A stretch of 64,000 nt of DNA from Coriobacteriia bacterium (GCA_038249135.1 JBBRWO010000003.1:1860-65859), one strand, 5' to 3'. Numbered from the stretch's first letter, positions 6,496 through 64,000 are shown. Program-made: numbers and translations. Notes: generated from the sequence alone by a model not told the origin.

Positions 6496-7215
6496 CTAGA
6501 ACGAGGGCACAGCCGAAGTAAGCCAGTTGGCCAGCACTCCCAGCTGCCCGGTGAAGATAAGTAGTCCGATCGCAACGAGCATCGCGCCGGCGACGCGGTT
6601 CACGATGAGCGAGTGACGGTTGAGCCACGCGAGCAGAGGCTTCACGCGACCGAACAGCAGGGCAACGAGCAGAAACGGTATCCCGAGACCGAGTGAATAC
6701 ACAAGCAGCAGGAGCGCACCATTGGAAACGCTCCCCGTGGCTGCGGCCAACGCGAGAATGGTCCCTAGGATCGGCCCGACACACGGCGTCCAGCCGGCGG
6801 CGAACGCCATCCCCATGACGAGCGATGCGCCCCGCCCGAAGGATCGAGCGCGACCCATGTCGGCACGAGCCTCACCGTACAGGCCGGGAATCTTGATGAA
6901 GCCGAGCATGAAGATGCCAAAGAGCACGACGGCGACTCCGGCAATGCGCTCGACAACCTGTCGATACTCGACAAGGAGCTGTCCAACGACTGAAGCGGAC
7001 GCACCGAGGGCGACGAATACCAGTGAGAACCCGACAACGAAAAGAGCTGCGGGAACGAGGACCTTTGAAGATGACCGCTCAGAGTCCGCGAGCTGTGTCG
7101 TAGTCATCCCTGTCATGAACGACAGATATCCGGGAATCAACGGGAGGACGCACGGAGAGAGAAATGACAACAGCCCTGCGGTGAACGCAGCGACATAGCT
7201 CACGGAACCACTCAC
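6496..7215 (-). CDS. ccdA: cytochrome c biogenesis thiol-disulfide transporter CcdA (DsbD-like membrane core)
   Basis: 239 aa polytopic protein. FLSPCVLPLIPGYLSF and GWTPCVGPILG are the two conserved CcdA/DsbD Cys-Pro motifs. GTG start at 7215 with an AAGGGTGG RBS. Confidence 0.85.
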   Translation of the reverse strand: MSGSVSYVAAFTAGLLSFLSPCVLPLIPGYLSFMTGMTTTQLADSERSSSKVLVPAALFVVGFSLVFVALGASASVVGQLLVEYRQVVERIAGVAVVLFGIFMLGFIKIPGLYGEARADMGRARSFGRGASLVMGMAFAAGWTPCVGPILGTILALAAATGSVSNGALLLLVYSLGLGIPFLLVALLFGRVKPLLAWLNRHSLIVNRVAGAMLVAIGLLIFTGQLGVLANWLTSAVPSF

Positions 7216-7258: not shown

Positions 7259-7276
7259 TATACCCCACTGGGTATA
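7259..7276. promoter_or_regulatory. CsoR-type operator-like palindrome upstream of ccdA
   Basis: TATACCCCACTGGGTATA has arms ATACCC/GGGTAT. It closely matches the palindrome in the csoR-CDF intergenic region (14290-14306) and lies 44-61 nt upstream of the ccdA start. Confidence 0.4.
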
Positions 7277-7301
7277 TATTCGCGAGTGCTTCCAGCTGCT
7301 G

Positions 7302-7523: not shown

Positions 7524-7851
7524 CAGGTGCATCTCCCTCGGATTTGATGTTCCCGCAGTACGGGCACATGCGCCAATCCTGCATCATCGCGGCGTCGCAG
7601 GAACCACACCGTACCATCACGGGCGCCGAGCGGTCTTCATGATTACGGTGAGATGACAACAGCGCCCAGCTCAACAGCACTACCAGGCCGGTCGCGATGG
7701 CGGGTATAACCCAGCCCAGACCAGCGCCTTGTGGGAGTGCGTAACGGTCAGCGTCGGCGAAAAGGGTAAGCCCCAAGGCCAGCAAGACACCCGTCACAAC
7801 GAGACCCGAGAGAAGGCCTGCTAGTGCGCGTGTCGCCGGACGAGATGTCAC
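7516..7851 (-). CDS. small membrane protein with C-terminal zinc-ribbon (CxxC...CxxC)
   Basis: Two hydrophobic helices are followed by VRCGSCDAAMMQDWRMCPYCG. Start moved to GTG 7851 (AGGGAG RBS 7 nt upstream). The 28 codons upstream in the track ORF are Arg/Pro-rich and contain a sigma-54 promoter match. Confidence 0.6.
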   Translation of the reverse strand: MTSRPATRALAGLLSGLVVTGVLLALGLTLFADADRYALPQGAGLGWVIPAIATGLVVLLSWALLSSHRNHEDRSAPVMVRCGSCDAAMMQDWRMCPYCGNIKSEGDAPDE

Positions 7852-7893
7852 TCGGAAGCTCCCTGGCAGAGGGCATGGACGTAACCGCCGAGG

Positions 7894-7909
7894 TGCAATC
7901 GGTGTGCCA
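7894..7909 (-). promoter_or_regulatory. sigma-54 (-24/-12) promoter
   Basis: The minus strand reads TGGCACACCGATTGCA, an exact match to TGGCAC-N5-TTGCA. It sits in the 94-nt gap between the EBP gene stop (7946) and GTG 7851, in the correct orientation. Confidence 0.65.
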
Positions 7910-7945
7910 ACATCCGCAGAGCGCGCCAGACGCATCTCCGAGAGG

Positions 7946-9295: not shown

Positions 9296-9306
9296 GTGGG
9301 TCCCCT

Positions 9307-10842
9307 TTACTCGTCCAGTGCCGCCGGCAAGGTCACGTTGAATACCGTGCCATCCGGAGAACTCTCTACTTCGATTCTACCTTCGTGCTCGTCAATGATC
9401 CTGTGAACTATCGTCAGGCCAAGTCCGGTGCCTTCGGCCCGCTTGGTGGAGAACGGGTCGAACACCTTAGGTAGATCCTCCGGCGCGATTCCCGGGCCAC
9501 TGTCGGCTACCGACACTTGTACGTACTCACCGCTCGCGCGAGTGGCGATGATAATGGTTCCGCCGTCGTCACCCATCGCTTGCACGGCGTTGGTGACCAG
9601 ATTCAGAAACACTTGCTTGAGCTGATCGGGGTCGCCATCAACGAGCGGGAGGTCGTCGGCGAGCCGTTGCTCGATTCGGACGTCGGACTGACGCGCGAAC
9701 CGAGTAGTGAAGAGTACTACGTCCTGCAAAAGCTCGTTGAGGTCAGCACGGACCAGCGTGGGTTTGCTGGGTCGGCCGAAGTCCAACAACGCCTTGATGA
9801 CCTTGTCCAGTCGATCGATCTCTTGCTTGATGACCTCTGCCGCGTCGTGAATGCGCGCCGCGTCGCATTGCGCATCCTCGAGCAGTTGTACGCTGGCTCT
9901 GATGACCCCAAGCGGGTTGCGGACCTCGTGCGCAACGCCGGCGGTCAACTCGCCCATGGCAGCAAGACGGTCCGCCCGAATGAGCTGATCGGTCAACGCC
10001 TTTATGTCTGAGACGTCTTCGAGTGTCACGACAGCCCCAAGCACTGTGCCACCGACGGCACGCATCCGCGACGTCGAAGATTGCACGTGAACCTCACGTC
10101 CTGAAGACGTGGTCAGCGTTCCCTCGCGTAGCGCCAGAGGTAGCCGACCCGCCAAGACCTTGTCGACATCGCCGGAAATTCCACCGTCTTCGCGAAACAG
10201 GAGCGAGATCGGCCGAGGGACCATCTCGAACTCGGACATGCCGAGCATCCGCTCCGCAGCAGGGTTGGCCGTGGTCACAGAACCATCCGGGCCCACCGTA
10301 AGCACCCCCGAGGTAATCGATCTGAGAATCGACTGGGTGTAATCCTGGATGTTGATGAGCTGGATCGCCCGCTCTTCGAGCTTCTTGTACGCCTCCTCGA
10401 GCTGCAAAGAGAGCTGACGCAAGTCGCGCGTCTTGTTCTCCTCTGTGTCGCGAAGCGCACCGAACAGCACGCCCACCGCGATAAACGATGCAACCTCCAG
10501 GACGCTGGCAAAGCCGGTGCTCATCGGAAGACCCAGGGTGGTTCGAGAATGGATCGCAAACGGCAGCGAGGCGGCAAGCGCGACGGCGAAGCCACCCCGA
10601 CGACCGAAAACGTACGCCGCGTAGATGATAGGAACGTAGTAGAGCCGCTGGTACAGGAGGTGCATCTGCGCACTTCCAACCCCTGACCCGGCCAGAAGGT
10701 GCAGTGCCGAGACTCCGATCAGCATCACGACGATGATCAGCGTCGCACGAACCTCGCGCGCCCTCTGCGCGTCGGCCATGGCGGGTGCGCCTTCGGTCGC
10801 GAGCTGCGGTCGCTTCGGCAGCCCGGCGCGCTCCCCTGTCAT
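9307..10842 (-). CDS. membrane sensor histidine kinase (multi-TM N-terminus, PAS, HisKA, HATPase_c)
   Basis: H-box [17 protein letters not shown]-box [12 protein letters not shown]-box DSGPGI...GTGLGL. ATG 10842 overlaps the rpoN stop as ATGA. Confidence 0.88.
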
Positions 10843-12239
10843 CTGCGGCGCCTCGCCCAAGACGGCTCGATGTGCAGTTCCTCGCGATACTTCGCTACCG
10901 TACGCCGCGCCACGGTAACGCCCTCGTCGGACAGCATCTCAGCGAGTCGCTGATCCGAGAGCGGCTTGGCGACATCTTCCGCCAGCACGAGTTCGCGCAA
11001 CCGCTGCTTGATACTGGTGGCGGCCACGTCCATGCCACTCGTCGTCCGGTATCCGCCGCTGAAGAAGTGCTTGAGCTCGAAGAGGCCATAGGGCGTGGCC
11101 ATGTATTTGCCGGTTACCCCGCGGGAGACGGTCGACAGGTGTACGCCGATCTCCACGGCGACGTCCTCGAGTCGCAGCGGACGCAACAGCCCGTGCCCGT
11201 CCTCGAAGAACTCGAACTGCACCTCGAGGATGATCTGCGTGATCCGCGTGACCGTGTCCTTGCGCCGATCGACGTTCTTGATGAAACTCTCCGCCGAGCG
11301 GATCTTGTCCTTCAGGTACTTGCGTGTCTCGTCATCTGCCGAGGAACCGCTGCGCAGCATCGACCGATACCGCGGGGACACGCGCAACGTGGGAATCGCT
11401 TCGTTGTTCGAGGTGATGACCCACTCATCGTCGAAGCGACGAATCGTCACGTCCGGCACGATGTAGCCCGGCGAAGGTCCGGGAGAAAACGCTCCGGCCG
11501 GTCTGGGGTTGAGGACTTTGAGAATCTCAACCAGTCGCCGGACCTCGGCCTCATCGACCTTCAGCGCTCGCGCGACCTTGCGATAGTGGTTGGCGGCAAC
11601 ATCATCGAGATGCTCGCGCACGATGACGAGCAGCAACGGCTCCTCGATGTCGAGTGACTCGAGCTGAAGACGCAACGCTTCTGCGAGGTCGCGCGCGCCA
11701 ACCCCCGGCGGATCGAGTTGCTGAACCGCGCGAAGTCCCTCCTCGGCCTCGGCGAGGGTAACGTCAACGAGTTTCGCGACTTCCTCGAGCGAGCCGACAA
11801 AAAATCCGTCCTTGTCGAGCGACCCGACCACGGCCTTCGCCGCATTCTCGACATCCTCGGTGACGTCAAGCAAGGAAAGCTGCTCGAGCAGATAGTCGTC
11901 GAACGACTGAACGCCGCCGACAAAGTCCTCAGTGTTGGTCTGCTCGGCGTTAGGGTCGCGGGGCGCACTCTGGTCGGTGGTGTCGAGATCCTCATACATC
12001 TCGAGCCACTCGTCCCACGAACGCTCGTCGACCGGCTCCTCAGGAGCCTCTTCACCCTCAGCGGGCTCACTGTCGGTCTCGTCAACCTCGAGGACCGGGT
12101 TCTCGAGCATCTCGACTTCGATCATCTGCTGAAGCTCTGTAACGGGCATGGCGAGTATGGCCAGTCCCTGATACACCTGCGGGGACAGCGTCACTTTCTG
12201 GCGAAGGTCTGATCGCTGCGAGAGTTCCAAAGTACTCAC
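10839..12239 (-). CDS. rpoN: RNA polymerase sigma-54 factor
   Basis: 466 aa with a Gln/Leu-rich region I, an acidic region II and the C-terminal RpoN box ARRTVAKYREEL. Confidence 0.93.
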   Translation of the reverse strand: MSTLELSQRSDLRQKVTLSPQVYQGLAILAMPVTELQQMIEVEMLENPVLEVDETDSEPAEGEEAPEEPVDERSWDEWLEMYEDLDTTDQSAPRDPNAEQTNTEDFVGGVQSFDDYLLEQLSLLDVTEDVENAAKAVVGSLDKDGFFVGSLEEVAKLVDVTLAEAEEGLRAVQQLDPPGVGARDLAEALRLQLESLDIEEPLLLVIVREHLDDVAANHYRKVARALKVDEAEVRRLVEILKVLNPRPAGAFSPGPSPGYIVPDVTIRRFDDEWVITSNNEAIPTLRVSPRYRSMLRSGSSADDETRKYLKDKIRSAESFIKNVDRRKDTVTRITQIILEVQFEFFEDGHGLLRPLRLEDVAVEIGVHLSTVSRGVTGKYMATPYGLFELKHFFSGGYRTTSGMDVAATSIKQRLRELVLAEDVAKPLSDQRLAEMLSDEGVTVARRTVAKYREELHIEPSWARRRR

Positions 12240-34492: not shown

Positions 34493-37400
34493 TCAGCGCC
34501 AGTGCTCGAATCCATCCCTGAGTCGCCGTTGTGTCTGGGAGAGCATCTGTCGCTGCCGCTCCCACGTCAGCGCGATGACGAGCATCGCAGTGCCGACCAG
34601 GCCGAGAACCAGCCACCACACGCTTGCGAGGTACGTGAACGAGCGCCAGCCGACCACGACCACAAGTGCGCCGGCCGCCCCGAACAGGTAGGCACGCACC
34701 TTGAGAATCACTCCCGCTGCGATTGCAACGAGCGCGAGGCCAACCGCCCACACGAGGTCGCTGAATCCCGCAGCGCCCATCGGAGCGGTAAGCGCGATCA
34801 ACGCCGGCATCCCCACGCCCACTGCAACGGTCGCGATATCGAGCGCAACGGGAACGGTGCGCTCGAAGGCCCTGGATGCGTACAGATAGCCCATGGCAGC
34901 GAGGTAGGCTGCCACAGCCGTCGTGTAGACCTGGAACGTGGTGACATCCCAAGCGGAGAACTCCACGCACGCAGCCACTAGAAGCAGCGCCCATCCCACG
35001 TACGACACGGCCTCGACTTTCCAGAGGTGCGACTGTGTGATGACGTAAGCAGCCGCGATCGTGAAGCACAGGGCGACACCTTGGCGACCAAACTCCGTCC
35101 ATGAGGGCGGCTCGAACATCAGACCGGTCGCCGCCTCTCCGGCGATACTCAATGCAACGAGAAATCCGACGCCGACAAGCCCGGCCAGTGCCACTGCCTG
35201 GCCGACGCGTGCAAGGCGACCGTCACGCCCCGTGACACCGAGCGCCGACGGGAGTCCGAGGCCCCCTGCGGCGACACCGAGAACGATGATCGTGACCCAC
35301 GACGAAGGGCCGATTGCCGAGACACCCGCGACCACAGCGGCGAACCCGACGAGTGCCGCTGCGAACGACAGCCACTGCTCGCGGGTCGAGAATGCTGCGC
35401 CGACCCACGCCAGCGAGGCCAGAGCCAGCGAACCACAGAGCGGCCAATCGGTCGCCCCCATTGCCGCAGCGGTCGTAGCCGCCCCTGCCGCCGCGACCGC
35501 GAACCACTGAGCCTTGGGCGTCCAGCGGTCACGCAGGGCCACACCGACCAACGCGAGCACCGCGCCGGCAGCCGTTGCCGCCAACCCTGCATCCCCCGGA
35601 AGTTCTCGGAAAGCGAAGCCGGCGAGCCCGGCAGCAAGCACACCACCGGCCGCAGCGATCGCCGCAGAGGCCTGCGGGCCTGCCAGCACGGCATCAACCG
35701 TGAAAACCGCCGAGAAGCCGAGCGCGAGTGCCGCCATCGAGCCCGACGACGGGTTGGCCCTGAATGACTCGGCGACCACGCCACCAACCAGTAGTGCGAT
35801 CGCGATGCCACGCATCGTCCAGCCGAACGCCTCAGCAGGAGCTCGGTAGAACCGCTCGACCCGGGCACGTACGGCGAGCCAGGCGGCCGTCACGCCCAGC
35901 AGCACGAGCGCGTACATCGGCGAGGAGAGGTCCGGCAGCAGCCATGCGCAAAGCGCCGCCGCCGCGTACAGCGACCAGAGCGCGGACCCAAACGCTGCGA
36001 AGGGACCGCGGCGAATCAGACAGCTCAGCGCCCAAGCGACCAGTACCCAAGCCGCGAGCATGACGTCTGCCGAAGGGACGGCGATGGCCGTGAGCGGGAC
36101 ACCTGCCCCCACAAGCGGCACGAGAATCGAGGAAAGCACCAGCCCTGCATTCCCGCCGACTCGCAGCACGCCAGAGGTCTCTATCACGCTCGCCGAGGAC
36201 GCCGAATGGTCAACGAACCCGTCGGCCAACCCGTTTGTGAGTCTGTCGGCGAGAACCGAAGCCAGCGTCCACGTGACTGCGAGCCCAGCCAGCACGGCGA
36301 CCCCGACGGGATCGGTCGCGTGGAGCAGTTCGAGCGCGCTGGTTGCAGCAAGCAGCTCCATGCCGAGCGCCGCAATCGCGAAGGGGGTACCCGCGCGGCG
36401 TAGGGCGATCAGCGTATACATCGCGGTCACCAGGACGAGACAGCCGACCCCGAGCCACGACGGCATGCCGGGCTGAAGAAGCATCACAAACAGCGGCAGC
36501 TGGATAGCACCTGCGATCCAGCGAGCGTTGTCACGCTGCAACAGCGTGCTGCGAAGCACGACCCCCGCGCCGGCCAGCGTGACAGTGGCGGCGCTCGCGG
36601 CGCTGACGAGCGAACTCGTCCCGACGGCGAGGGCGTCTGCCGCGATACCCATCGCAGCGCCAACACTCACCACCGGAGCCGCCCACAGAAGCACCTGCGC
36701 GAGCGAGGCGAACGAGTCGTCGTCGTGAGCCCGCTCGGCGACGAGTTGCCACAGCAGCGCAATCACGGCTATTCCCGCGAGCCGCACCGGATTCTCAAGA
36801 TGCAGACCCGCTGCCATCAACCACCACCAGCCCACTTGAGCCGCTGCACCGGCAATGCCATAGAAGCGGTCGCCGAGCCGCACCTCGGTGAGCCAGTACA
36901 CCGCCGAGCACACCAGCAGCGCCACAGCCCACGGGAACGGTCCTTCGAGCCGCCAACCGTCAATGACTATCCAACAGTCGAACAACAGCATCGCCGAAGC
37001 GACCACCGTGAGCGCCACGCTACCCGCCCGGAGGTCGAGTTTGGTGCGAGCGTAATGCCCCGCCGCGTAGAACACCGCCGTCAGCGCGCCGAGAAACGCA
37101 AGGCGCAAACCCGGCCCGGTGGAGCTCCACACCGCGAACGCGAAGATGCCGGACGCCACGATGACCAGAAACGCTCCGAGGAACAGCAGAACCGTCGTCC
37201 AGCTGATCGGTTCGCGAACTCGGGCCGGCATCTGTGAGACTGTCTGCGTCACCGCAGGACCTGGCACCGCGCCACGAGAAGCGTAGTCGCCCGCGGGTGA
37301 CGCCGTGCCGGGAATCCGCGGACTCGTCTCGGCAACCGCTGGTGGCCGGTAGGCTCCCGTGATGATGACGATGAGGTCTTCTCGGCGGGCGAGGTAGCGC

Positions 37401-37585
37401 GGCGCGAGCGCCTCGTAAGACGCCATCGGGACCTCGCCTCGCTCGACCGCGCGTGCGATCTGATCAAGAAAGTAGTCGATGCGTCCGAGTTCGTTCTGCT
37501 CTGCGAGATGCGGCCGCACGTCCCCCACGGGAACCCCCTCGTTCGACAGTGGAATGCGAGTACAGGATACCCTGCCGCGGCTCAC
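34493..37585 (-). CDS. large polytopic membrane protein of unknown function (about 1030 aa, more than 20 hydrophobic segments)
   Basis: A soluble N-terminal region of about 130 aa is followed by near-continuous Ala/Leu/Gly/Val-rich TM-like segments to the C-terminus. I recognise no catalytic motif. GTG 37585 overlaps the uvrC stop (GTGA). Confidence 0.7.
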   Translation of the reverse strand: MSRGRVSCTRIPLSNEGVPVGDVRPHLAEQNELGRIDYFLDQIARAVERGEVPMASYEALAPRYLARREDLIVIITGAYRPPAVAETSPRIPGTASPAGDYASRGAVPGPAVTQTVSQMPARVREPISWTTVLLFLGAFLVIVASGIFAFAVWSSTGPGLRLAFLGALTAVFYAAGHYARTKLDLRAGSVALTVVASAMLLFDCWIVIDGWRLEGPFPWAVALLVCSAVYWLTEVRLGDRFYGIAGAAAQVGWWWLMAAGLHLENPVRLAGIAVIALLWQLVAERAHDDDSFASLAQVLLWAAPVVSVGAAMGIAADALAVGTSSLVSAASAATVTLAGAGVVLRSTLLQRDNARWIAGAIQLPLFVMLLQPGMPSWLGVGCLVLVTAMYTLIALRRAGTPFAIAALGMELLAATSALELLHATDPVGVAVLAGLAVTWTLASVLADRLTNGLADGFVDHSASSASVIETSGVLRVGGNAGLVLSSILVPLVGAGVPLTAIAVPSADVMLAAWVLVAWALSCLIRRGPFAAFGSALWSLYAAAALCAWLLPDLSSPMYALVLLGVTAAWLAVRARVERFYRAPAEAFGWTMRGIAIALLVGGVVAESFRANPSSGSMAALALGFSAVFTVDAVLAGPQASAAIAAAGGVLAAGLAGFAFRELPGDAGLAATAAGAVLALVGVALRDRWTPKAQWFAVAAAGAATTAAAMGATDWPLCGSLALASLAWVGAAFSTREQWLSFAAALVGFAAVVAGVSAIGPSSWVTIIVLGVAAGGLGLPSALGVTGRDGRLARVGQAVALAGLVGVGFLVALSIAGEAATGLMFEPPSWTEFGRQGVALCFTIAAAYVITQSHLWKVEAVSYVGWALLLVAACVEFSAWDVTTFQVYTTAVAAYLAAMGYLYASRAFERTVPVALDIATVAVGVGMPALIALTAPMGAAGFSDLVWAVGLALVAIAAGVILKVRAYLFGAAGALVVVVGWRSFTYLASVWWLVLGLVGTAMLVIALTWERQRQMLSQTQRRLRDGFEHWR

Positions 37586-50072: not shown

Positions 50073-52310
50073 CTACGCCCTCCTCTTCTCTTGTGCGGTA
50101 TTCGCCGAACGTCGCCCACTTCCCGCCGATGACTTCGCTAGGAGGCGCATCCCGTTCGCGATCACCAACAATGCCACGCCTGTGTCGGCGAAGACTGCGA
50201 GCCACATGTTGGCGTACCCGAACACGGCCGCCGTCAGCACCGCCACCTTCACCGCCACCGAGAACACGACGTTCTGGCGGATGATTGCAAGCGTGCGGCG
50301 ACCCAACGCGAAGAAGCCCGGCAGAGCCGTGAGATCGTCGGCCATCAGCGCAACGTCGGCCGTCTCCAATGCCGTGTCGGAACCGACCGCGCCCATCGCG
50401 ATGCCGATGTCGGCCGCAGCAAGCGCGGGCGCGTCGTTCACGCCGTCCCCGACCATCGCCACGACTCCCCAGCGCTCCTTGAGCCGATGCACGGCCGCGA
50501 CCTTGTCGGCGGGCAGGAGCCTCGCCATGTGCGAGGCCAGCCCGAGCCGGTGCGCGACCGCGGCGGCAGTCCGTTCGTTGTCGCCGGTCAGCATCACCAG
50601 GTGCTCGATACCACCCTGCTGGAGCGCCGCAATCGCATCGGGTGCCTCCGCGCGTGCCGCATCAGCCACGCCGAGGAACCCGAGCGGTGCGTGACAGTCC
50701 TCGGCCAGAACAAGAATCGTCATCCCGGCGTTCTCGGCCTCTTCGACGAGGGTCGCGAGCTCCGGTGGGATGCGCACAAGCTCCTCGGCGAAGACCGGGC
50801 TGACAAGGTGGAGTCGGCGGCCATCGACGGTGCCGCTGACTCCGCGGCCCGGCTGCTCCACGACATCGGTTGCAGGCCTCATCGAGAGCTGGACCCGCTG
50901 CGCCTCGACGAGCACCGCGCGAGCGAGCGGATGGGTGGAGTTGGCTTCAAGCGACGCGGCAAGCGCTAAGACCTCATCAGCGTCGAGCATGTCCTCGGCG
51001 TGGACTCGGCGCACGAACGGACGACCGGCCGTCAGGGTCCCGGTCTTGTCGAACGCGATCGCTCGTACACGCGCAGCCTGCTCAAGGAACGCGCCGCCCT
51101 TTACCAGGACGCCATCGCGCGCGGCCCTCGAAATCGCGCTCACAAGCGTGACCGGAGTCGAGATGACGAGTGCGCATGGACATGCCGCGACGAGCACAAC
51201 CAGCGAGCGATAGAACCACTCGGACCAGACGGTCAGATCGTTGACCGGCGTGAAGTGAACCGCTGCAGAGATCAACGGGCCGCCAACCGCTACGACCACT
51301 GCGAGCCCGACCGCGAGGGGCGTGTAGACGCGACTGAAGCGATCCACTACGAGTTGAACCGGGGCGCGGGCCGCCTGAGCCTCTTCGACCTGGAAGACGA
51401 TGCGAGCGAGTGTAGAGTCTTCCGCGCTCGCGGTGACCGTGATCTCGAGCAACCCACTGGTGTTGAGGGAGCCCGCGTACACCGCGTCACCCACCGCCTT
51501 ATCGGCGGGCATCGGCTCGCCTGTGATCGGCGCCTCGTCGACCGCAGAGAACCCGACAGCGATCGTGCCGTCCAATGCGATCCGCTCGCCGGGCCTGACG
51601 ATGATAACCTCGCCGACCGAGACCGCCGCCGGGGAAACTTCGACTATCGTCGAGTCACGGCGCACTCGCGCAATCGGGGGCGCCAACGACATCAGGTCGC
51701 GAATCGAGCTGCGCGTGCGAGCCAGCGCGCGCGACTCAAGCCATCCTCCCAGCGCAAAGAGGAAGACAACGGTCGCGGCCTCAGAGTACGCCCCGATACC
51801 AAACGCGCCGATGACCGCAATCATCATGAGCACGTTCATATCCACGCTACGAGCTCGCACAGAAGCGACCGCACGCGGCCCGAGCAGGCTGAAGCCCATG
51901 AGCACCGCGAGCAGGTAAGTCGCGGTCGACGCAGCCGGCGAAACTCCAGCGAGTGCCCAGCCAGCAAGTGACAGCGCGCCGGACCCGACAACCGCTATCG
52001 TCGTGCGATTGCGCGCCATCCACGGCCGGGAATCAGGCGTGCCCGAGGGCTCGCGCGCCTCGCCGACCGCCACGATCCCGTGACCCGAGCGCTCGACCAC
52101 CGCGACGACGCGCGCGCGCGGATCGTCCTCGGGTTCGTATTCGATCAACAGGGTGCCACTCGCGTAGTTCAGGTCCGCCGAGACCACCCCGGGGACCAGC
52201 GATACGGACTTAGCCACGGTCCGCGCGCAGTCGGGTCAATCAAGCCCCGTGATATGCCACACCTCGTGCGGGTAGGCGCCCGAGATGTCTACCCCACTCA
52301 CGCGCGTCAT
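50073..52310 (-). CDS. P1B-type heavy-metal (Zn/Cd/Pb-like) translocating ATPase; N-terminal HMA domain interrupted by in-frame TGA at codon 25
   Basis: CPC in TM6 (VAACPCALVIS), DKTGTLT, STHPLA, GDGVNDAP and a ZntA-like TM7-8 (VKVAV...AVFADTG). The track ORF starts at GTG 52217. The same frame continues upstream through TGA (52236-52238) to ATG 52310, which overlaps the arsR stop. Confidence 0.9.
52236..52238 (-). other. in-frame TGA at the first Cys position of the HMA GLD-C-PDC motif (Sec candidate or nonsense mutation)
   Basis: The frame reads ...EVWHITGLD-TGA-PDCARTVAKSVSLVPGVV.... Cys would be expected here in a GxDCxxC metal-binding loop. Confidence 0.6.
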
Positions 52311-52826: not shown

Positions 52827-53198
52827 CTAGCGCATGCCGTACTCATCAATCAACGGGTCGTATGCCTGAACGTTCCAGTCGATTTGCAGGGAGCGAAGGC
52901 GGTTGTAGTACTCCTCTTCGTTGTATTCCTTGTTGAGAATGTGGAACCGAGCGCCATTGAGCCCTACGCAGTAGGCGCAGTCACGGCAATCCACGCACTG
53001 GACACACTCGATCAAGCTGTCGCAGTTGTGACAGCCGATGCAGGCACGCGCGTTGTAGGTGTAGTTGCAGTTGCGGGTCGCCTCCACGTTGAAGCAGCCG
53101 TAGTTATTCATCGCATCGCGGTCATGGGTATGCTCAACTTTGAGCCGAGACCACTCGCGTGCGTGTGCAGCCTTGTCCAACATCGCAGCCCTTCCCAT
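52827..53198 (-). CDS. small cysteine-rich protein (12 Cys within about 50 residues), unknown function
   Basis: ...NYGCFNVEATRNCNYTYNARACIGCHNCDSLIECVQCVDCRDCAYCVG... has CxxC spaced every 3-6 residues. It is followed by an acidic/aromatic tail (NKEYNEEEYYNRL). The local DNA is visibly more AT-rich than its surroundings. Confidence 0.55.
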   Translation of the reverse strand: MGRAAMLDKAAHAREWSRLKVEHTHDRDAMNNYGCFNVEATRNCNYTYNARACIGCHNCDSLIECVQCVDCRDCAYCVGLNGARFHILNKEYNEEEYYNRLRSLQIDWNVQAYDPLIDEYGMR

Positions 53199-53291
53199 TC
53201 GCTCGCTGGTTCGAATAGCGTATCACCGTGCGCAACGACGCGCATTGGAGATTTCGCGGTACGATGAGCGCAAACCACTGAGGGAGTTCAC

Positions 53292-59178: not shown

Positions 59179-59595
59179 CTACGGGTTCGGCTCTCCTATG
59201 AGTCGTACGTCAGTGAAGCCGGCGTGGGCACGACGATCAGCGGAAACCAGCTCCCCGCCGAGAAGGACGGCAAGCGCCGGCGCCAGAGCATCGTAGAACG
59301 TACATCCGAGCAGAGCACATTGACGCGCGGTCTGCCCCACCAGCTCATCGGAGAGAGGATGAATCTCAATCTGAGCGAGGGCAACCGCTTCCCACGCCGG
59401 GATGATCTCCCTCACGCCAAACTGCCGATTCACGATGCCGAGCAACTCTGTCACGAAATGCTCCGCGACGAGGAGCACAACCGTGCCTTCGGCGTGCTGG
59501 TCCAGCAGTGCGCGCGCTTGAGCCGAGCCATGCTCTTCACGAAACCACTTCACCCCGACTGAGGCATCCAAGGCGATAGGGGTCGTGGAGCTCAC
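59179..59595 (-). CDS. vapC: PIN-domain ribonuclease toxin (VapC-like)
   Basis: 138 aa. Conserved acidic residues have PIN spacing (IALDASV, LVAEHF, TFYDAL, VSADRR). The start overlaps the stop of the upstream small ORF. Confidence 0.8.
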   Translation of the reverse strand: MSSTTPIALDASVGVKWFREEHGSAQARALLDQHAEGTVVLLVAEHFVTELLGIVNRQFGVREIIPAWEAVALAQIEIHPLSDELVGQTARQCALLGCTFYDALAPALAVLLGGELVSADRRAHAGFTDVRLIGEPNP

Positions 59596-59810
59596 GTGGT
59601 CCGGCTTCCATCGGCTTGATCCTTCACGGAATCCGGCCTAGACGAAGTAGGGTCATCGCTCTCCCGCAGTTCGCGAAGAATCTCCAAGCTTGGCCTGTCG
59701 TCCAGCACCGGCCGGGCGCCAATCTCCCGCATCCGCGCGATCGCGCACTCGACACCCTGCCGCCGCGCCGCTGCGGAATCTGCATCGCGGCGCGCGGTGA
59801 GATACCCCAC
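59592..59810 (-). CDS. putative antitoxin of the VapC-like toxin
   Basis: 72-aa ORF (GTG start) that overlaps the PIN gene start by 4 nt. The call rests mainly on size and position, since no clear RHH/AbrB motif is seen. Confidence 0.45.
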   Translation of the reverse strand: MGYLTARRDADSAAARRQGVECAIARMREIGARPVLDDRPSLEILRELRESDDPTSSRPDSVKDQADGSRTT

Positions 59811-59843
59811 GGATGCTTCGCGAATGGCGTCAAGAGTTCCTGC

Positions 59844-62800
59844 CTAGTGACAACTCGCACATGCTGGCGCGACGCCACCCAGCGGCTTCTCGTAGACATC
59901 GAAGCGATCGACGGTCACGTTCGTCGCGCGAGCGTACTGGCTCTTCGTCCCTTTCACCTTCACCGTGAGCGTGTGCGTTCCCGGAGCGAGCGCTCTGCTC
60001 CTGTACACCTCGACCTGGTTGCGGGTGATGTCGGAATACAGGTCAACGGTTCCTTGCGAGACGCCGTCGATGAGGACCTCGGCGAAACCACGGTAGGGGT
60101 CGTTGTCGGCGCGGATGGCGATCTGCTCTCCGGTGAACTGGACGGAGAGTGTCGAACCGGTGACATTGGACTGCTTCTGCTGTCCGGCGGTGTAGGACTG
60201 CGATGTCTGCACCCTCCACGTTCCGGTGGTGGTGACGGTGTTGGCCAGGTAGCGGTTGGCCGGGGACGCGGCATGGCTGCGTTCCTCGAGGAAGCGGGCC
60301 GATGTGTCGGCGACCTGGCTGGTCGAGTGGCACAGCGGACCGCCGCAGGTCACCGACTCGCTTGCAACGTGGCTGTCAGCAGTCTGGTCACCGTCGTCCA
60401 CACCTCGTGACGTGGGACCGACCCACGGTGTGGCCGAGGTCATCGTCGACGCATGCCCGGAGTGCGTGGCCGACACCGAACCCTCGTGACACGCCACGCA
60501 TGCGGCAACGGCGTGGCATGAGCCACACTTCGAGACCGAGGTGTCGACTCCGGCAGGCCAGGTAGCCTTGGAGTGGATGACGTGGAGCGCAGCGACACTG
60601 GTCTCTTGCGAGGCCGAGAACGCGAAGACGCCGAACGTGTCGATGTAGCGCGGCACCCCGGACGTAGAGGACGCTCCCCAGCCGGGATGGCAGGAGGCGC
60701 CGCAGTTTGCGTCGCGGTTGTGATAGGGATGAGTGCCTGCGAGCGACTCGTCGTGGCACTTTCGGCACGCGGTAGCGTAGTTCACCGGAGCGACCGAGAA
60801 CCCGTGGGGATCAGCGGCCGACGCTCCCCCATGGCACGCGCCGGTCTGGCAGTTCTTGTCCCACACGGTGAACGAACCGCGAGGACCACCATCGGCGTGA
60901 CAGGCCTGGCATCCGGCTGCGGCCGACGAGCTGGTCGACTTGGCGTGCTCAACGACCAACTCGGCCGAGTGGCACTTCGCACACGCGGTGCGGTCGTCCG
61001 AGGCTATGAACTGGGATGCAGGATGCGCGTGCCCCTCGTGGCAATCGAAACATGTGGTCTGATCATCGGTCTCGATCTCGTCGAGCTTCATGCTTGCAGT
61101 GAAGATGTTCTCCGGGAGCGATGGTGGCTCGAGGACGAATCGTACCGCCTCGGCAGGGGGATTGAAGGTGAGGACTGTGTCCACCTTTGAAATGTCGGTC
61201 GGAGGGTAATACAGCGGCGCCGAGTACCGAGACGTCCATACCCCGTTCGAGAGCGCCTCGACCTTGACGACGGAACGCACCTTCACGGTAAGCCGCAGCC
61301 TGGCGGAGGTGATGCGGCCGGAGTCGGGCGCGAAGCTGGTGCTCTCCCATCGCTTGTTCGTGAAAGCGACTTCTGTGGAGCGCAGGTTGGCGCGGTAGAC
61401 CTGTGCTTTCATCGAATCAGGATCCGACGCCGAGTGACATGTGGCGCAGGTGAGCGCGTTGCCTCCCGCGTCGCGAGCCGACTGCTTCGCGTGCTCGCGG
61501 GTCAGAACCGCGTCGTGACATGCATCGCATCCTTGCCCGCCGAACGCGACCCGATGATCGGCGGGGATGTCATGCGGACCGACACGCGGACTCAGCGGAT
61601 TCACCACTTGGTGGCAGTACGTGCAGTCAAGTGCCTCACGGGGCGCATTGACCGCGTACTTCGAAGCGTCGGAACGATCCTTGTAGGAATACGAGAAGGT
61701 CCCGCCGTGATCCCCATCAACGGGGCGGATGTAGGCAGGTGCCGGCCACGAGGCCATGGTGTTTCCAGCAGATCCATAGCGGTGACATGCGTCGCAGTGC
61801 CCCAACCCGGACACGGTGAGTCCCCCTTGCTCGTGGCAAAGGAAGCAGCGGTTGTCCTGGTGGTAGTTGTCCCCGAACGTGGTGTTGTGGACGTCGTCGA
61901 ATCCACCTGAGCCGGGAAGATCCTTGTAGGAGGTGGAGTTGTACACCTCACGGTCGGTGTAAGTTGGTCCGCGATGACAGCCTTTGCAGGCATCGTTGGC
62001 ATCGTCCACATAGGGCATGTCGACGAAGCCGGTCACGTCGAAGTCCCATGACGCGACCTTGGTCAACTGCTTACTGCTCCGAATCGAAACGTCGACATGG
62101 TGCGAACCCGACGTCAAGCGCTGTTTAAAGCGAATCTCGGCATGTGTATCGGAGAGACTCATCGCAACCGAGGGCGTGACGGGCTTGCCGTCCACGGTCA
62201 TGACAACGGTCGTAGGCCCCAAGCCGTCGGGCTCGTCGAAGTCGACCGCGATGAGCGGCGTGTCAGTGGTCAGCACGCTTCCCGCCGCCGGCGTGATGTT
62301 GCTCGCCTGTGGCTCGACACCCACGTAGAAGTTCCAGTCGTTGGTCTTGTCGGTGTACGCGCTGTACGACGACTCGAACCCGTGGACGTCCTCTGCCATG
62401 ACCCTCACGTTGTGGGTTGTCCGGGGAGTGAACGCCGTGCCCTCATGAGTCACGAGATACCCACCGTCGATGGAAGTCGCGACGTGAGGGACTAAGACGT
62501 TGTCCACATAGAACCGAATCGTGTCCGAGCTCACTCCCGAGCTATCCGTCACCCTCGCCGAGATAACGGGAGTCGTCGATCCTGTTGATCCCCCGTACGC
62601 GGGCTGCTTGGACCCGACCGCAGGACGATCCTTCACGTATGAGATCGACCACGTGACTTCCGCACGCGTCCCGAGTGTGTCAAGAACCGACAACTCGACC
62701 GAGATCGGTCCGCCCTCGGGGAACGCCGGGCCCAGCGCGTACGTGAGAATCCCGTGACTGTGCTCCCATTCGGTTCCGGCCCATTCATCGGACCAAGAGA

Positions 62801-64000
62801 GTTGCGGCACCGCCGTCACGATTTGCCCCGACGGCAAGGTGAGCTTCAGGCTCTGTGAGCCCTCGGCAATCCCGTCGGCGTCGAATACTCTCGCCTGGAT
62901 ACTCCCATAATCCGTGAGTGCCCCGTCCGAGGGTGCGAGCGAGCTGAATGCGGGTGCAGCTGGCAGGTCGACGTGAAAGCTCCACGTCGCCTCCGCCGGT
63001 GCGCCCACGTTGTCCGTACATGACACGCGCACCTCGTGCGGGCCGTCCACGAGCTCAGCGAGCGGCTTGGCCGCAATCGAATACCCCTGAGCGACGGGCG
63101 TGAGCGTAACGGGAAGATCGATGCCGTCCACCCGCATCGTCACCGAATCCGCGTCTATTCCTGCCGAAGAGTCGACGAAGGTGACCGATATCGTAGGCTG
63201 CACGGATGACTGGTGGACTCCCTGCGCGGGAGAAGGGTGGCTCCACACCGGAAATCCGGCGATGGCCATGAACCGGCGGGTGTAGGTCCGCGACACCCCT
63301 AGGCTGTCGGCGACGGTGATCGCAGAGTCGAATACCTGGCCATCCGCGGGATTGGCGACAGCGGTACTGATGGTGAGCGCGGTGTCCGCGGCCGAGTACG
63401 CCGTCCAGGGCGTAACGGTACGCGTGGTCGTGTTCACTGAGTCGCTCATGCGAACAATGAGTGAAGATCGGTCGATCGCATCATCATCGGCTAGGCCGAT
63501 ATACCGACTCACGGAAGGCTGGATCCAGCTGACGGGTTCTCCCATGTCGTCGTAGGTCCAGTAGCCCCCGCTCATCACCGCGAATCCGGAAGATGCGCTG
63601 TCAGATGTGATACGCGGAGCATTGTTGGTCTCCGCACGCGAAAAGATCCACGACCGCGTCACGAGATGCCCCGCCCGGTCGGCGGCAGTGACAGTCACGC
63701 CATGGTTCCCTATGGCGAGAGGGAGCGATGGCACGTAGGTGAGCCGGTAGCCCGATGCGACCGTTACGACGGAGGGAGTCACAAGTTGCCCGTCGACCGT
63801 CATCAGGATGGATTCAGGGGCGATGCCGCTTCCGGTATCAATGAGGTCGGCGAAGATCGGCCTCTGCGGATCCCACACCTCGGTTCGTGGGCCCCATGCA
63901 GACACCTGCGGAAACGTCTCATCGACGGTGAAACCCCACGATGCGTTCGCCGTATTGCCTACACCGTCCCGAGCTCCGAGGGTGACGGTGTAGTCGCCGT
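59844..64000 (-). CDS. giant extracytoplasmic multiheme c-type cytochrome with N-terminal Ig-like (Big_5-like) repeats; 5' end beyond the right edge of the window
   Basis: The frame stays open from 63905 to 64000 (GDYTVTLGARDGVGNTANASWGFTVDETFPQ...). At least six modules of about 100 aa end in W-x-F (ASWGFTV, RSWIFS, ATWSFHV, VTWSISY, NDWNFYV, ASWDFDV). The C-terminal 714 aa carry 13 CXXCH plus CX4CH, CX3CH and CX4CH variants, and the protein ends in ...PACASCH-stop. Confidence 0.85.
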   Translation of the reverse strand, partial: GDYTVTLGARDGVGNTANASWGFTVDETFPQVSAWGPRTEVWDPQRPIFADLIDTGSGIAPESILMTVDGQLVTPSVVTVASGYRLTYVPSLPLAIGNHGVTVTAADRAGHLVTRSWIFSRAETNNAPRITSDSASSGFAVMSGGYWTYDDMGEPVSWIQPSVSRYIGLADDDAIDRSSLIVRMSDSVNTTTRTVTPWTAYSAADTALTISTAVANPADGQVFDSAITVADSLGVSRTYTRRFMAIAGFPVWSHPSPAQGVHQSSVQPTISVTFVDSSAGIDADSVTMRVDGIDLPVTLTPVAQGYSIAAKPLAELVDGPHEVRVSCTDNVGAPAEATWSFHVDLPAAPAFSSLAPSDGALTDYGSIQARVFDADGIAEGSQSLKLTLPSGQIVTAVPQLSWSDEWAGTEWEHSHGILTYALGPAFPEGGPISVELSVLDTLGTRAEVTWSISYVKDRPAVGSKQPAYGGSTGSTTPVISARVTDSSGVSSDTIRFYVDNVLVPHVATSIDGGYLVTHEGTAFTPRTTHNVRVMAEDVHGFESSYSAYTDKTNDWNFYVGVEPQASNITPAAGSVLTTDTPLIAVDFDEPDGLGPTTVVMTVDGKPVTPSVAMSLSDTHAEIRFKQRLTSGSHHVDVSIRSSKQLTKVASWDFDVTGFVDMPYVDDANDACKGCHRGPTYTDREVYNSTSYKDLPGSGGFDDVHNTTFGDNYHQDNRCFLCHEQGGLTVSGLGHCDACHRYGSAGNTMASWPAPAYIRPVDGDHGGTFSYSYKDRSDASKYAVNAPREALDCTYCHQVVNPLSPRVGPHDIPADHRVAFGGQGCDACHDAVLTREHAKQSARDAGGNALTCATCHSASDPDSMKAQVYRANLRSTEVAFTNKRWESTSFAPDSGRITSARLRLTVKVRSVVKVEALSNGVWTSRYSAPLYYPPTDISKVDTVLTFNPPAEAVRFVLEPPSLPENIFTASMKLDEIETDDQTTCFDCHEGHAHPASQFIASDDRTACAKCHSAELVVEHAKSTSSSAAAGCQACHADGGPRGSFTVWDKNCQTGACHGGASAADPHGFSVAPVNYATACRKCHDESLAGTHPYHNRDANCGASCHPGWGASSTSGVPRYIDTFGVFAFSASQETSVAALHVIHSKATWPAGVDTSVSKCGSCHAVAACVACHEGSVSATHSGHASTMTSATPWVGPTSRGVDDGDQTADSHVASESVTCGGPLCHSTSQVADTSARFLEERSHAASPANRYLANTVTTTGTWRVQTSQSYTAGQQKQSNVTGSTLSVQFTGEQIAIRADNDPYRGFAEVLIDGVSQGTVDLYSDITRNQVEVYRSRALAPGTHTLTVKVKGTKSQYARATNVTVDRFDVYEKPLGGVAPACASCH

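What the first reader, a model, noticed from the sequence alone, without database searches (positions are those of the whole stretch)
59844..64000. Giant Ig-repeat plus 13-16-heme cytochrome c, ending exactly on a CXXCH motif
The gene is open to the window edge, so the protein exceeds 1385 aa. The N-terminal two-fifths consist of at least six modules of about 100 aa that end in W-x-F after a D-x-x-G-N/H strand. This is the pattern of Big_5/SbsA-type Ig domains found in S-layer and cell-surface proteins. From residue 640 of the track ORF (nt 61988 downward) there are 13 canonical CXXCH motifs plus CQTGACH, CGASCH and CGGPLCH. Two beta-sandwich-like inserts of about 115-130 aa interrupt them (aa 830-945 and 1210-1340). 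The last three residues before the stop are C-H of CASCH, so a heme would sit at the extreme C-terminus. In a monoderm, actinobacterial-type organism, a cell-wall-spanning multiheme protein suggests extracellular electron transfer or metal/mineral reduction. ccdA is present 53 kb away, but no ResB/ResC (CcsBA) is in the window.
Basis: partly seen in the sequence, partly recalled or inferred. Interest (0 to 1): 0.75.

Follow-up and report, generated by a model that had tools for sequence, protein, structure and literature searches.

The report
Secreted 16-heme, Ig-repeat surface cytochrome
This is a real gene for a very large secreted protein that carries about 16 iron-containing heme groups behind a stalk of seven Ig-like domains, from an uncultured relative of the Coriobacteriia; it most likely carries respiratory electrons through the thick cell wall to minerals outside the cell, and its last 340 residues are a widespread building block that no protein-family library describes.

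Summary
The minus-strand frame 59844-63998 is open to the window edge (1384 codons) and ends ...PACASCH-stop. It holds 13 CXXCH plus CX4CH, CX3CH and CX4CH. Composition-matched shuffles give 0.03 CXXCH.

A 97%-identical metagenomic orthologue supplies the missing 5' end. The precursor is about 1501 aa and has a Sec-type signal peptide. dN/dS is 0.125.

The gene lies between polA and rpsA-coaE-uvrB in an actinobacterial-type genome. UvrB and RpsA are 74-80% identical to Coriobacteriia. OPB41/Anaerosomatales-like relatives of this class are already known to be rich in multiheme cytochromes and to reduce Fe(III).

New here: the last ~340 aa form a conserved module of seven heme motifs. A CBM-type beta-sandwich is inserted before the final CXXCH. 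The module recurs in at least 70 of the 150 best hits, including giants of over 4000 aa with 76-85 heme motifs. The same beta-sandwich, without hemes, is repeated in peptidoglycan hydrolases, so it is probably a cell-wall-binding domain. All 16 hemes have a conserved partner histidine.

Best reading: a wall-tethered electron conduit for extracellular electron transfer. This is inferred, not shown. It is a new variant of a known kind; interest 0.6.

The parts
59844..64000 (-). Cytochrome gene, 5'-truncated by the window edge. It has 1384 codons plus a stop in the window. About 116 codons (signal peptide and the start of Ig module 1) lie beyond nt 64000.
   Evidence: Open frame. The orthologue P0001/L001 is 97% identical and extends the N-terminus. 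dN/dS is 0.125.
62028..63998 (-). Ig-like stalk, aa 1-657: the end of module 1 plus modules 2-7. Each is about 95-125 aa, and most end D-x-x-G...W-x-F.
   Evidence: Internal alignment and BLAST between modules, E down to 2e-11. Pfam Big_13 at aa 281-344, above cutoff.
61434..61988 (-). Heme motifs 1-6, all CXXCH, at aa 671, 718, 735, 792, 824 and 851. Conserved distal His candidates are 704, 713, 764, 809, 815 and 836.
   Evidence: Pfam Cytochrome_C7 scores 22.7 bits, below the 24.8 cutoff.
61074..61403 (-). Insert 1, aa 866-975: a jelly-roll-like beta-sandwich between hemes 6 and 7.
   Evidence: AF2 gives an all-beta model, pLDDT 72. Foldseek finds only weak matches to CBM and viral jelly rolls, E about 1e-3. 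The insert is conserved in P0013, P0159, P0002 and P0008.
60897..61052 (-). Heme motifs 7-9, all CXXCH, at aa 983, 1006 and 1030. Partner His candidates are 990/992 and 1018.
   Evidence: Pfam Paired_CXXCH_1 is below threshold.
59847..60878 (-). Conserved C-terminal module, aa 1041-1384. Its seven heme motifs are CX4CH 1050, CXXCH 1078, CX3CH 1099, CXXCH 1158, CXXCH 1167, CX4CH 1218 and CXXCH 1380. Its conserved His are 1065, 1090, 1093, 1139, 1142, 1179 and 1182.
   Evidence: The exhaustive HMMER search gave 5019 hits at E<=1e-3 and 256 at E<=1e-30. There are 72 full module copies among the best 150 hits. The first three hemes resemble the c7-type domain of GSU1996, 3ov0, at E 1e-3.
59886..60245 (-). 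CBM-type beta-sandwich, aa 1252-1371, inserted between heme 15 and the terminal heme motif. It is the putative cell-wall-binding domain.
   Evidence: Pfam CE2_N 5.9e-8, above cutoff. AF2 pLDDT 90-98. Foldseek matches 3nqh at 6.5e-10, plus MiXBM and CBM6/35/36. The same domain is repeated in Amidase_3, NlpC/P60, SpoIID and subtilase proteins.
59844..59861 (-). Terminal CASCH (aa 1380-1384) followed directly by the stop codon.
   Evidence: This motif is invariant in 72/72 module copies. The same stop is present in L001.
6496..7215 (-). ccdA-like thiol-reductant transporter. It is a possible part of System II cytochrome c maturation, but is not specific to it.
   Evidence: Pfam DsbD_TM 1.4e-18. 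Its neighbours are an HMA protein and a small Zn-ribbon membrane ORF, not ResB/ResC.

Best explanation
The gene encodes a secreted precursor of about 1500 aa. It is exported by the Sec pathway and cleaved after ...LFA. It then receives about 16 covalently bound, bis-His-ligated c-type hemes outside the membrane, added by a System II (CcdA/ResBC-type) machinery.

The mature protein has three parts: an N-terminal stalk of seven Ig-like domains; a nine-heme segment interrupted by a jelly-roll domain; and a C-terminal heptaheme module. In that module the polypeptide leaves the heme core, forms a CBM-type beta-sandwich, and returns to bind the last heme with its final five residues.

The protein has no transmembrane segment, lipobox, LPXTG, SLH or CWB2 anchor. 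I therefore propose that the beta-sandwich holds it non-covalently on the peptidoglycan or a secondary wall polymer of this monoderm Coriobacteriia-like cell. The closely spaced low-spin hemes would then relay electrons from membrane-proximal donors through or along the wall to extracellular acceptors such as Fe(III) minerals, humics, electrodes or partner cells. The Ig stalk would act as spacer, lattice or adhesin.

Shown: the gene, its motifs, the export signal in orthologues, purifying selection, the module family, the fold of the beta-sandwich, and that domain's co-occurrence with wall hydrolases.

Inferred: heme loading, wall binding, the direction and partners of electron flow, and the physiological acceptor.
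For: Motif count far above chance, with every Cys but one in a heme motif.

All 16 motifs are conserved in P0002 at 45% identity.

Signal peptides are present in L001 and P0002.

dN/dS is 0.125 in both halves.

There are 16 conserved non-motif His for 16 hemes. Within the module, a His about 7 residues after the terminal CXXCH (57/72 copies) and a His between module hemes 1 and 2 (all 8 modules that end on CXXCH, plus 2 others) never occur together. This indicates one ligand role filled from either side.

The beta-sandwich has a CBM-like fold.

Its non-heme paralogues are repeated 5-14 times in proteins with Amidase_3, NlpC/P60, SpoIID or subtilase domains. That is the architecture of a wall-targeting repeat.

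Neither this protein nor its giant relatives have a TM helix, and the window protein has no LPXTG.

The host is actinobacterial-type and closest to Coriobacteriia.

Named relatives come from Actinobacteria MAGs, including HGW-Actinobacteria-7.

ResB sits next to module-bearing giants in L087, L093 and L097, and a CWB2 protein sits next to one in L089.

Literature: OPB41/Anaerosomatales encode 17-18 multihemes and one isolate is an obligate Fe(III) reducer (PMC9686372). Deep-branching Coriobacteriia-like MAGs are rich in large multiheme cytochromes and are enriched on anodes (PMC5520028; PMC7399161).
Against: There are no experimental data.

The gene stands alone in a housekeeping cluster (polA / rpsA-coaE-uvrB). 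The 64 kb window holds no partner cytochrome, quinol dehydrogenase, ResB or ResC.

The AF2 model of the heme core is poor (pLDDT 27-70). Whether the heme chain is continuous is therefore untested.

Wall binding rests only on domain co-occurrence.

His1342 inside the beta-sandwich, at first a candidate heme ligand, is equally conserved in 536/553 non-heme copies. It therefore says nothing about heme contact.

The host lineage is inferred from 74-80% identities to Coriobacteriia, not from a marker phylogeny.
Confidence: 0.6

Rival explanations
1. Same protein and location, but electrons flow inward. It would take up electrons from Fe(II) minerals, cathodes, reduced humics or a syntrophic partner.
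For: Bis-His multiheme chains are reversible conduits; this is established for the Mtr/Pio/MtoA families. Nothing sets a direction.
Against: Cultivated members of the nearest described lineage use H2 or formate as donors and Fe(III) or sulfur compounds as acceptors (PMC9686372). No carbon-fixation or oxidase context lies near the gene.
Confidence: 0.12
2. A catalytic multiheme oxidoreductase acting on a soluble or colloidal substrate such as polysulfide, sulfite, nitrite or hydroxylamine. One of the beta-sandwich domains would shape an active site at a heme, as the Ig-like domain does in MccSep/ExtKL.
For: Multiheme enzymes with a beta-sandwich that contributes to the active site exist (PMC13510729). 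A relative of the host lineage respires sulfur and thiosulfate. The terminal heme lies next to the beta-sandwich in sequence.
Against: Every heme has a conserved partner His. The cytochrome region has no spare Cys, no in-frame UGA, and no CXXCK motif. The sequence shows no similarity to NrfA, HAO, OcwA, MccA, TsdA or MccSep in PDB, Pfam or NCBIfam. The conserved residues of the beta-sandwich are shared with non-heme copies.
Confidence: 0.08
3. Mainly a structural surface protein (S-layer-like lattice or adhesin). Its hemes would serve as a charge reservoir or for redox sensing or detoxification, not as a respiratory exit.
For: The N-terminal half is seven Ig-like domains, as in S-layer proteins and adhesins. 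The gene is not clustered with respiratory genes.
Against: The heme-bearing half is under the same purifying selection as the Ig half. The heme module is the widely conserved part, while the Ig stalk is found only in P0001, P0002 and P0008-like proteins.
Confidence: 0.12
4. The CXXCH motifs do not bind heme (they would be metal-binding or disulfide motifs), or the gene is a decaying pseudogene.
For: The window holds no maturation genes other than ccdA.
Against: Shuffles give 0.03 motifs. The CX3CH and CX4CH variants are invariant in 72 copies. dN/dS is 0.125. Relatives score above the cutoff for Cytochrome_C7. ResB lies next to relatives.
Confidence: 0.03

Closest known systems
Multiheme cytochromes of OPB41/Anaerosomatales and related Coriobacteriia-like MAGs (for example PKQ14990.1 of HGW-Actinobacteria-7, and Coriobacteriales S27)
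   Same: Same host type. The nine-heme first half with its jelly-roll insert matches P0013/P0159 at E 1e-109. The lineage is known for many large multiheme cytochromes and for Fe(III) and anode respiration.
   Different: Those reports count CXXCH motifs per genome. None that I found describes the domain anatomy, the heptaheme/beta-sandwich module or the Ig stalk. The full Ig-plus-16-heme architecture has only two close relatives among 5.8 billion proteins.
Wall and surface cytochromes of Gram-positive Fe(III) reducers: Thermincola CwcA (TherJR_1122) and OcwA (PDB 6I5B), and Carboxydothermus OmhA
   Same: They are secreted multiheme cytochromes of monoderm cells, proposed to carry electrons across or at the peptidoglycan. 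OmhA is surface-exposed and only weakly bound to the envelope (PMC7829351; PMC6703420).
   Different: There is no detectable sequence relationship; neither the A1 nor the A2 profile hits 6I5B or NrfA-type chains. Those proteins have 6-11 hemes and no Ig stalk. OcwA belongs to the NrfA/ONR lineage, whereas here all hemes have a partner His. Here a CBM-like domain is built into the heme module.
GSU1996-type 'nanowire' cytochromes built from c7-type triheme domains (PDB 3OV0; Pfam Cytochrome_C7)
   Same: The first three hemes of the module align to a c7-type domain, including the CH-x-G ending (E 1e-3). Relatives pass the Pfam cutoff. Both have a modular, repeat-built heme chain.
   Different: The window protein itself is below the Pfam cutoff (22.7 against 24.8). 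GSU1996 is periplasmic in a diderm and has no beta-sandwich or Ig domains.
MtrC/OmcA/MtrF outer-surface decahemes
   Same: Heme domains alternate with beta-rich domains in a surface-exposed terminal reductase.
   Different: The window protein has no hit to PF22113, and relatives are below the cutoff. The beta domains have a different fold (split barrel there, CBM jelly roll here). Those proteins are lipoproteins docked on a porin complex in diderms.
S-layer/multiheme fusion proteins of ANME archaea and Methanoperedens giants
   Same: Very large multiheme cytochromes joined to envelope-forming or envelope-binding domains. They are proposed to wire a non-conductive envelope (PMC5520028; PMC9012536 listed).
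   Different: They are archaeal. No homology was tested or found. This is analogy only.

Membership tests
c-type multiheme cytochrome (generic) | Several CXXCH (or CXnCH) heme-attachment motifs, far above chance | tested here: met
   13 CXXCH plus 3 CX3-4CH. Shuffles give a mean of 0.027. All are conserved in P0002.
c-type multiheme cytochrome (generic) | Export signal, because heme is attached outside the cytoplasm | tested here: met
   The signal is not in the window because the 5' end is cut. It is present in the 97% orthologue L001 and in P0002.
c-type multiheme cytochrome (generic) | A distal axial ligand available for each heme | tested here: met
   16 conserved non-motif His for 16 motifs. 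The tail His and the H1065 His are mutually exclusive across 72 module copies.
c-type multiheme cytochrome (generic) | A cytochrome c maturation system in the same genome | tested here: inconclusive
   ccdA is in the window. No ResB or ResC is in the window. ResB lies next to relatives in L087, L093 and L097. The rest of the genome is not available.
c-type multiheme cytochrome (generic) | Covalently bound heme on the protein | not testable with these tools
   Needs a heme stain, MS or spectroscopy.
Pfam Cytochrome_C7 (PF14522) / GSU1996-type c7 arrays | Score at or above the gathering cutoff of 24.8 bits | tested here: not met
   22.7 bits for the window protein. Relatives P0008, P0009, P0013 and P0019 score 29-39 bits. 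The profile against 3ov0 gives E 9.5e-4. The protein is c7-like in part but not a curated member.
MtrC/MtrF family (PF22113) | Match to the pentaheme domain II/IV model | tested here: not met
   No hit for the window protein. P0013 scores 28.3 and P0009 20.6, below the cutoff of 30.
OcwA / NrfA-ONR lineage | Sequence similarity to solved members (6I5B, NrfA) and a non-His-ligated catalytic heme | tested here: not met
   The PDB profile searches list no such chain. Only NrfB appears, at E 0.2-0.65. There is no CXXCK motif, and all hemes have a partner His.
Bacterial Ig-like domain Big_13 (PF19077) | Score at or above the cutoff of 27 bits, in repeated modules | tested here: met
32.6 bits at aa 281-344. 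Seven mutually alignable modules.
CE2_N / CBM-type jelly roll (PF17996) | Score at or above the cutoff of 27.9 bits, and a jelly-roll fold | tested here: met
   33.2 bits. AF2 pLDDT above 90. Foldseek matches 3nqh at 6.5e-10, plus CBM6/35/36 and CE2 N-domains. Carbohydrate or wall binding itself was not tested.
Known Gram-positive surface anchors (LPXTG/sortase, SLH, CWB2, LysM, lipobox) | Presence of the motif or domain | tested here: not met
   No Pfam hit. No LPXTG and no hydrophobic segment. No Cys in the L001 signal peptide.

The most novel reading that the evidence does not exclude
The ~340-aa heptaheme module with its built-in CBM-like beta-sandwich would be an undescribed 'conductive wall anchor'. 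In this reading the heme-loaded cell-wall-binding unit docks a whole family of monoderm extracellular cytochromes in the peptidoglycan. The family runs from this 16-heme Ig-stalk protein to wires of over 4000 aa with 76-85 hemes. The window protein would then be a heme-bearing, S-layer-like surface component that makes the actinobacterial wall conductive.
Probability: 0.35. Interest if true: 0.75.

Novelty: new variant of a known kind. Interest (0 to 1): 0.6.

Why it matters
How monoderm bacteria move respiratory electrons across 20-40 nm of non-conductive peptidoglycan is understood for only a few Firmicutes cytochromes. Coriobacteriia-like subsurface Actinomycetota are abundant in iron-reducing sediments, aquifers and anode biofilms. 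So far their cytochromes have only been counted, not dissected.

This gene gives a concrete anatomy that can be tested. It also points to a conserved module, present in hundreds of uncharacterised proteins, that may be the piece attaching such wires to the wall. If that is confirmed, the module would be a useful genomic marker for extracellular electron transfer in monoderms. It would also be a compact target for structural work, because its final heme is ligated by the C-terminal residue of the chain.

Tried and rejected
(1) The GTDB genome scan with the full-length alignment found no relative. Its two peptide patterns came from the Ig region. The second and last scan went to UvrB, for taxonomy.

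(2) The word-indexed protein search with the module alone returned nothing, not even the 97% orthologue. With the 25-sequence module alignment it returned two fragments. The family was seen only with the exhaustive HMMER search. Most family members could therefore not be used in the context look-up.

(3) I tried to recover the window's own 5' end through exact look-ups. rpsA is not on record. coaE is on a 1.5 kb contig only. The N-terminus therefore comes from the orthologue L001.

(4) I first took His1342 in the beta-sandwich to be the seventh distal ligand. I rejected this because it is equally conserved in 536/553 heme-free copies. The His at 1065 or in the tail fits better.

(5) The AF2 model of the module has a heme core of low confidence, so no statement on heme packing is possible.

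(6) Insert 1 gave only generic jelly-roll matches at E about 1e-3, so I assign it no specific family.

(7) NCBIfam has no family for this protein. PDB sequence searches find no solved multiheme relative beyond weak c7, NrfB and STC similarity.

(8) The weak Pfam hits Shr-like_HID, CopC, PKD and magnetochrome are all below cutoff and I did not use them.

(9) The plus-strand ORFs that overlap the gene are treated as shadows. The minus frame has GC3 of 0.76 and dN/dS of 0.125.

(10) The ORF 59624-59899 is not an antitoxin. The real antitoxin remnant is in another frame.

Full report
OBSERVATION. On the minus strand the frame ending at 59844 is open for 1384 codons up to the window edge, and its last residues are ...GGVAPACASCH followed by a stop. 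The ORF lister's start at 63905 is only the first in-window GTG. Of 33 cysteines, 32 lie in these motifs. In 2000 shuffles of the same residues the mean was 0.027 CXXCH and the maximum 2. The minus frame has GC3 of 0.76, typical of genes in this 62-67% GC window.

THE MISSING 5' END. The first protein search found two true homologues among 5.8 billion clusters. P0001 is 97% identical (JGI metagenome 3300009083). P0002 is 43-45% identical (ENA sediment metagenome).

In the P0001 contig (L001) the called start is a TTG, but the frame is open upstream to an ATG 34 codons earlier. That ATG is preceded by GGGGTAGGG. The extension reads MRGASIGARLPAAAMIAVAVSLTAPPQLFA|DTVG. P0002 begins MRLRRVGLGGLITALATCSLLACLGVSAASA|DTLG. 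Both have a positive n-region, a hydrophobic core and an A-x-A-like site before a conserved DT(V/L)G, which is the pattern of a Sec signal peptide.

The full precursor is therefore about 1501 aa, and the window lacks about 116 codons. Between the window and L001 there are 90 synonymous and 36 non-synonymous differences. dN/dS is 0.125, and is the same in the Ig half and the heme half. The gene is functional and under constraint.

ANATOMY.
(i) Ig-like stalk. Seven Ig-like modules of 95-125 aa align with one another, with BLAST E-values down to 2e-11. Five end in W-x-F. Pfam recognises Big_13 above its cutoff, not Big_5.

(ii) First heme segment. Residues 658-1040 carry nine CXXCH. After the sixth there is a ~110-aa insert, which AF2 models as an all-beta jelly roll (pLDDT 72). 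It has only generic CBM and viral jelly-roll matches. This whole segment, insert included, is conserved at E 1e-109 in P0013/P0159. P0159 is PKQ14990.1 of 'Actinobacteria bacterium HGW-Actinobacteria-7'.

(iii) C-terminal module. Residues 1041-1384 are a module that the exhaustive HMMER search revealed as widespread. That search gave 5019 proteins at E<=1e-3 and 256 at E<=1e-30 among 1.84 billion representatives. Among the best 150, 70 proteins carry 72 full copies.

The module has seven heme motifs. In all 72 copies the CXXCH at 1078, 1158, 1167 and 1380, the CX3CH at 1099 and the CX4CH at 1218 are invariant. So are His 1090, 1093, 1139, 1142, 1179 and 1182.

Between the sixth and seventh motifs lies a 120-aa beta-sandwich. 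It hits Pfam CE2_N above cutoff and is modelled at pLDDT 90-98. It matches CBM-type jelly rolls: 3nqh at 6.5e-10, the xanthan-binding MiXBM, CBM6/35/36 and CE2 N-domains. The first three hemes of the module resemble a c7-type triheme domain of GSU1996 (E 1e-3).

THE C-TERMINAL HEME. The module ends on (V/I)AP-x-C-x-x-C-H everywhere. When it is the last element of a protein, the chain stops either right there (eight module copies besides the window and P0001) or eight residues later, ending ...H-W. When the module comes first, directly after a signal peptide, the chain continues into dozens more heme motifs.

One regularity supports real heme binding. Of the 72 copies, 57 have a His about seven residues after the terminal CXXCH and none between module hemes 1 and 2. 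All eight copies that stop on CXXCH (and two others) have the reverse, a His at the position of window His1065 in 'HGF'. None has both. The two histidines thus appear to fill the same ligand position.

With His1065 the window protein has 16 conserved non-motif histidines for 16 heme motifs, nine in the first segment and seven in the module. That fits bis-His, low-spin electron-transfer hemes. It leaves no obvious open catalytic site. I first assigned His1342 of the beta-sandwich as a ligand, but dropped this because it is just as conserved in 536 of 553 heme-free copies of the domain.

WHAT THE BETA-SANDWICH IS LIKELY FOR. The same domain without hemes occurs 5-14 times per protein in many other hits. 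I scanned ten of these with Pfam. Two carry N-acetylmuramoyl-L-alanine amidase, two NlpC/P60, one SpoIID, one a subtilase and one a cohesin. One cluster is named 'cell wall-associated NlpC family hydrolase' by its source. Repeats of a non-catalytic domain attached to peptidoglycan hydrolases are the hallmark of wall-targeting domains in monoderm bacteria; this is established for LysM, SH3b, CWB and SLH.

Neither the window protein nor any of 32 relatives examined has a hydrophobic segment after the signal peptide. The window protein has no LPXTG, SLH, CWB2 or lipobox. A non-covalent wall anchor is therefore needed, and the beta-sandwich is the candidate. This step is inference.

HOST AND CONTEXT. 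Downstream on the same strand lie a PIN toxin, rpsA, coaE, an SLT transglycosylase and uvrB. In L001 polA lies upstream. The order polA-[gap]-rpsA-coaE-(SLT)-uvrB recurs in Actinomycetota genomes. The polA-rpsA gap is variable, and here it holds the cytochrome. UvrB is 74% identical and RpsA 75-80% identical to Senegalimassilia, Collinsella and other Coriobacteriia, against about 60-66% to other Actinomycetota.

The rest of the window is housekeeping: whiA-yvcK-rapZ-uvrC-uvrA, gap-pgk, an Opp transporter and amtB-glnD. A ccdA-like gene is present at 6496-7215, beside an HMA protein. No ResB/ResC and no second cytochrome are in the window.

In metagenomic loci that carry the module (GC 57-69%), ResB lies next to the giant cytochrome in three cases. 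Glycosyltransferases, a CWB2 protein, a subtilase and Lgt are also nearby. All three relatives that carry an organism name are Actinobacteria/Actinomycetota MAGs.

LITERATURE. Deep-branching Coriobacteriia-like Actinobacteria with many large multiheme cytochromes were reported from Horonobe sediments (PMC5520028) and from an anode biofilm, where Coriobacteriales S27 has 37 of them (PMC7399161). The first OPB41 isolates (Anaerosomatales) encode 17-18 multihemes, and Parvivirga hydrogeniphila is an obligate Fe(III) reducer (PMC9686372). Wall and surface cytochromes of Thermincola and Carboxydothermus are the characterised monoderm models (PMC6703420, listed; PMC7829351). I found no description of the Ig-stalk architecture, of the heptaheme/beta-sandwich module, or of this beta-sandwich as a wall-binding domain. 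Absence from this library is not proof of absence.

MECHANISM AND RIVALS. The best-supported reading (0.6) is a Sec-exported cytochrome, matured by System II and held non-covalently on the wall. Its 16 low-spin hemes would relay electrons towards extracellular acceptors, and the Ig stalk would act as spacer, lattice or adhesin.

The same conduit running inward cannot be excluded (0.12). A mainly structural or capacitor role is possible (0.12), but the heme module is the conserved part of the family. A catalytic multiheme enzyme, by analogy with MccSep where an Ig-like domain completes the active site (PMC13510729), is disfavoured (0.08). Every heme has a partner His, there is no spare Cys, Sec or CXXCK, and there is no similarity to any catalytic multiheme family. 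A non-heme protein or a pseudogene is very unlikely (0.03).

COMPARISON AND NOVELTY. In function it resembles the Gram-positive wall and surface cytochromes (CwcA, OcwA, OmhA). In construction it resembles modular c7-type 'nanowire' cytochromes and, by analogy, the S-layer/multiheme fusions of ANME archaea. It is not a member of any curated family that I tested. Cytochrome_C7 scores just below cutoff, MtrC and OcwA/NrfA are not met, and NCBIfam has nothing. Only the accessory domains (Big_13, CE2_N) pass their cutoffs.

It is therefore a new variant of a known kind. The kind (surface multiheme cytochromes in monoderm, Coriobacteriia-like Fe(III) reducers) is known. The architecture and the conserved conductive-anchor module are not described. 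I score interest at 0.6. The most novel reading still open is that the module is a general heme-loaded wall anchor defining a large family of monoderm electron wires. I give that a probability of 0.35, and it would deserve about 0.75 if true.

Noticed in passing
window 59596-59843 (minus strand), compared with L001 9424-9847: The RHH antitoxin gene directly downstream of the cytochrome is truncated. A 159-nt deletion relative to the 97%-identical contig L001 removes the ribbon-helix-helix N-terminus (MAESVAKVTISLPVDLLEQ...). The partner PIN toxin ORF (59179-59595, Pfam PIN 5e-9) is intact.
   Followed up: partly
window 7946-12239 (minus strand): A sigma-54 gene (rpoN, 10839-12239), an NtrC-type sigma-54 activator (7946-9295) and a PAS histidine kinase (9307-10860) sit in an actinobacterial-type genome. 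To my knowledge sigma-54 is rare in that phylum.
   Followed up: no
window 34493-37585 (minus strand): A 1030-aa polytopic membrane protein with many predicted helices and no Pfam hit at all. It lies between uvrC and rapZ.
   Followed up: no
window 6496-7935 (minus strand): The ccdA-like gene is followed upstream by a 76-aa HMA (heavy-metal-associated) protein and a 139-aa membrane ORF with a C-terminal zinc ribbon, not by ResB/ResC. A P-type metal ATPase lies at 50073-52217. The ccdA may therefore serve metal or thiol homeostasis rather than cytochrome maturation.
   Followed up: partly
Relatives: L087 1619-11767; L090 9779-21019; proteins P0020, P0030, P0055: Proteins that begin with the same module reach 4475 aa with 76 CXXCH plus 8 CX3-4CH (P0020). 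Another has at least 3383 aa with 67+18 motifs and is cut by the contig end (L087). Most complete ones end in a conserved C-x4-C-x2-H...TP(Y/I/V)WP-COOH motif and have no TM segment.
   Followed up: partly
protein P0077 (724 aa), residues about 387-416: Two modules lie in tandem and share one CXXCH. The terminal heme motif of the first, with its following His (CTGCH-TRH), is also the first motif of the second. This suggests the unit is circularly defined.
   Followed up: partly
L001 4817-4840 (outside the window, about 80 nt upstream of the cytochrome start codon): A perfect 8-bp inverted repeat, ATGTATGC-N8-GCATACAT, lies in the polA-cytochrome intergenic region. It may be an operator for a regulator.
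   Followed up: no
window 52827-53222 (minus strand): A small Cys-rich ORF holds a single CIGCH inside a run of C-x2-C and C-x-C motifs. It has no signal peptide and no Pfam hit. It is probably a metal-binding protein, not a cytochrome.
   Followed up: no
metagenomic loci L086, L090, L095, L097, directly upstream of the giant cytochromes: A conserved ~210-230-aa protein with an N-terminal hydrophobic segment and no Pfam hit precedes the module-first giants in four loci. It may be a dedicated partner.
   Followed up: partly
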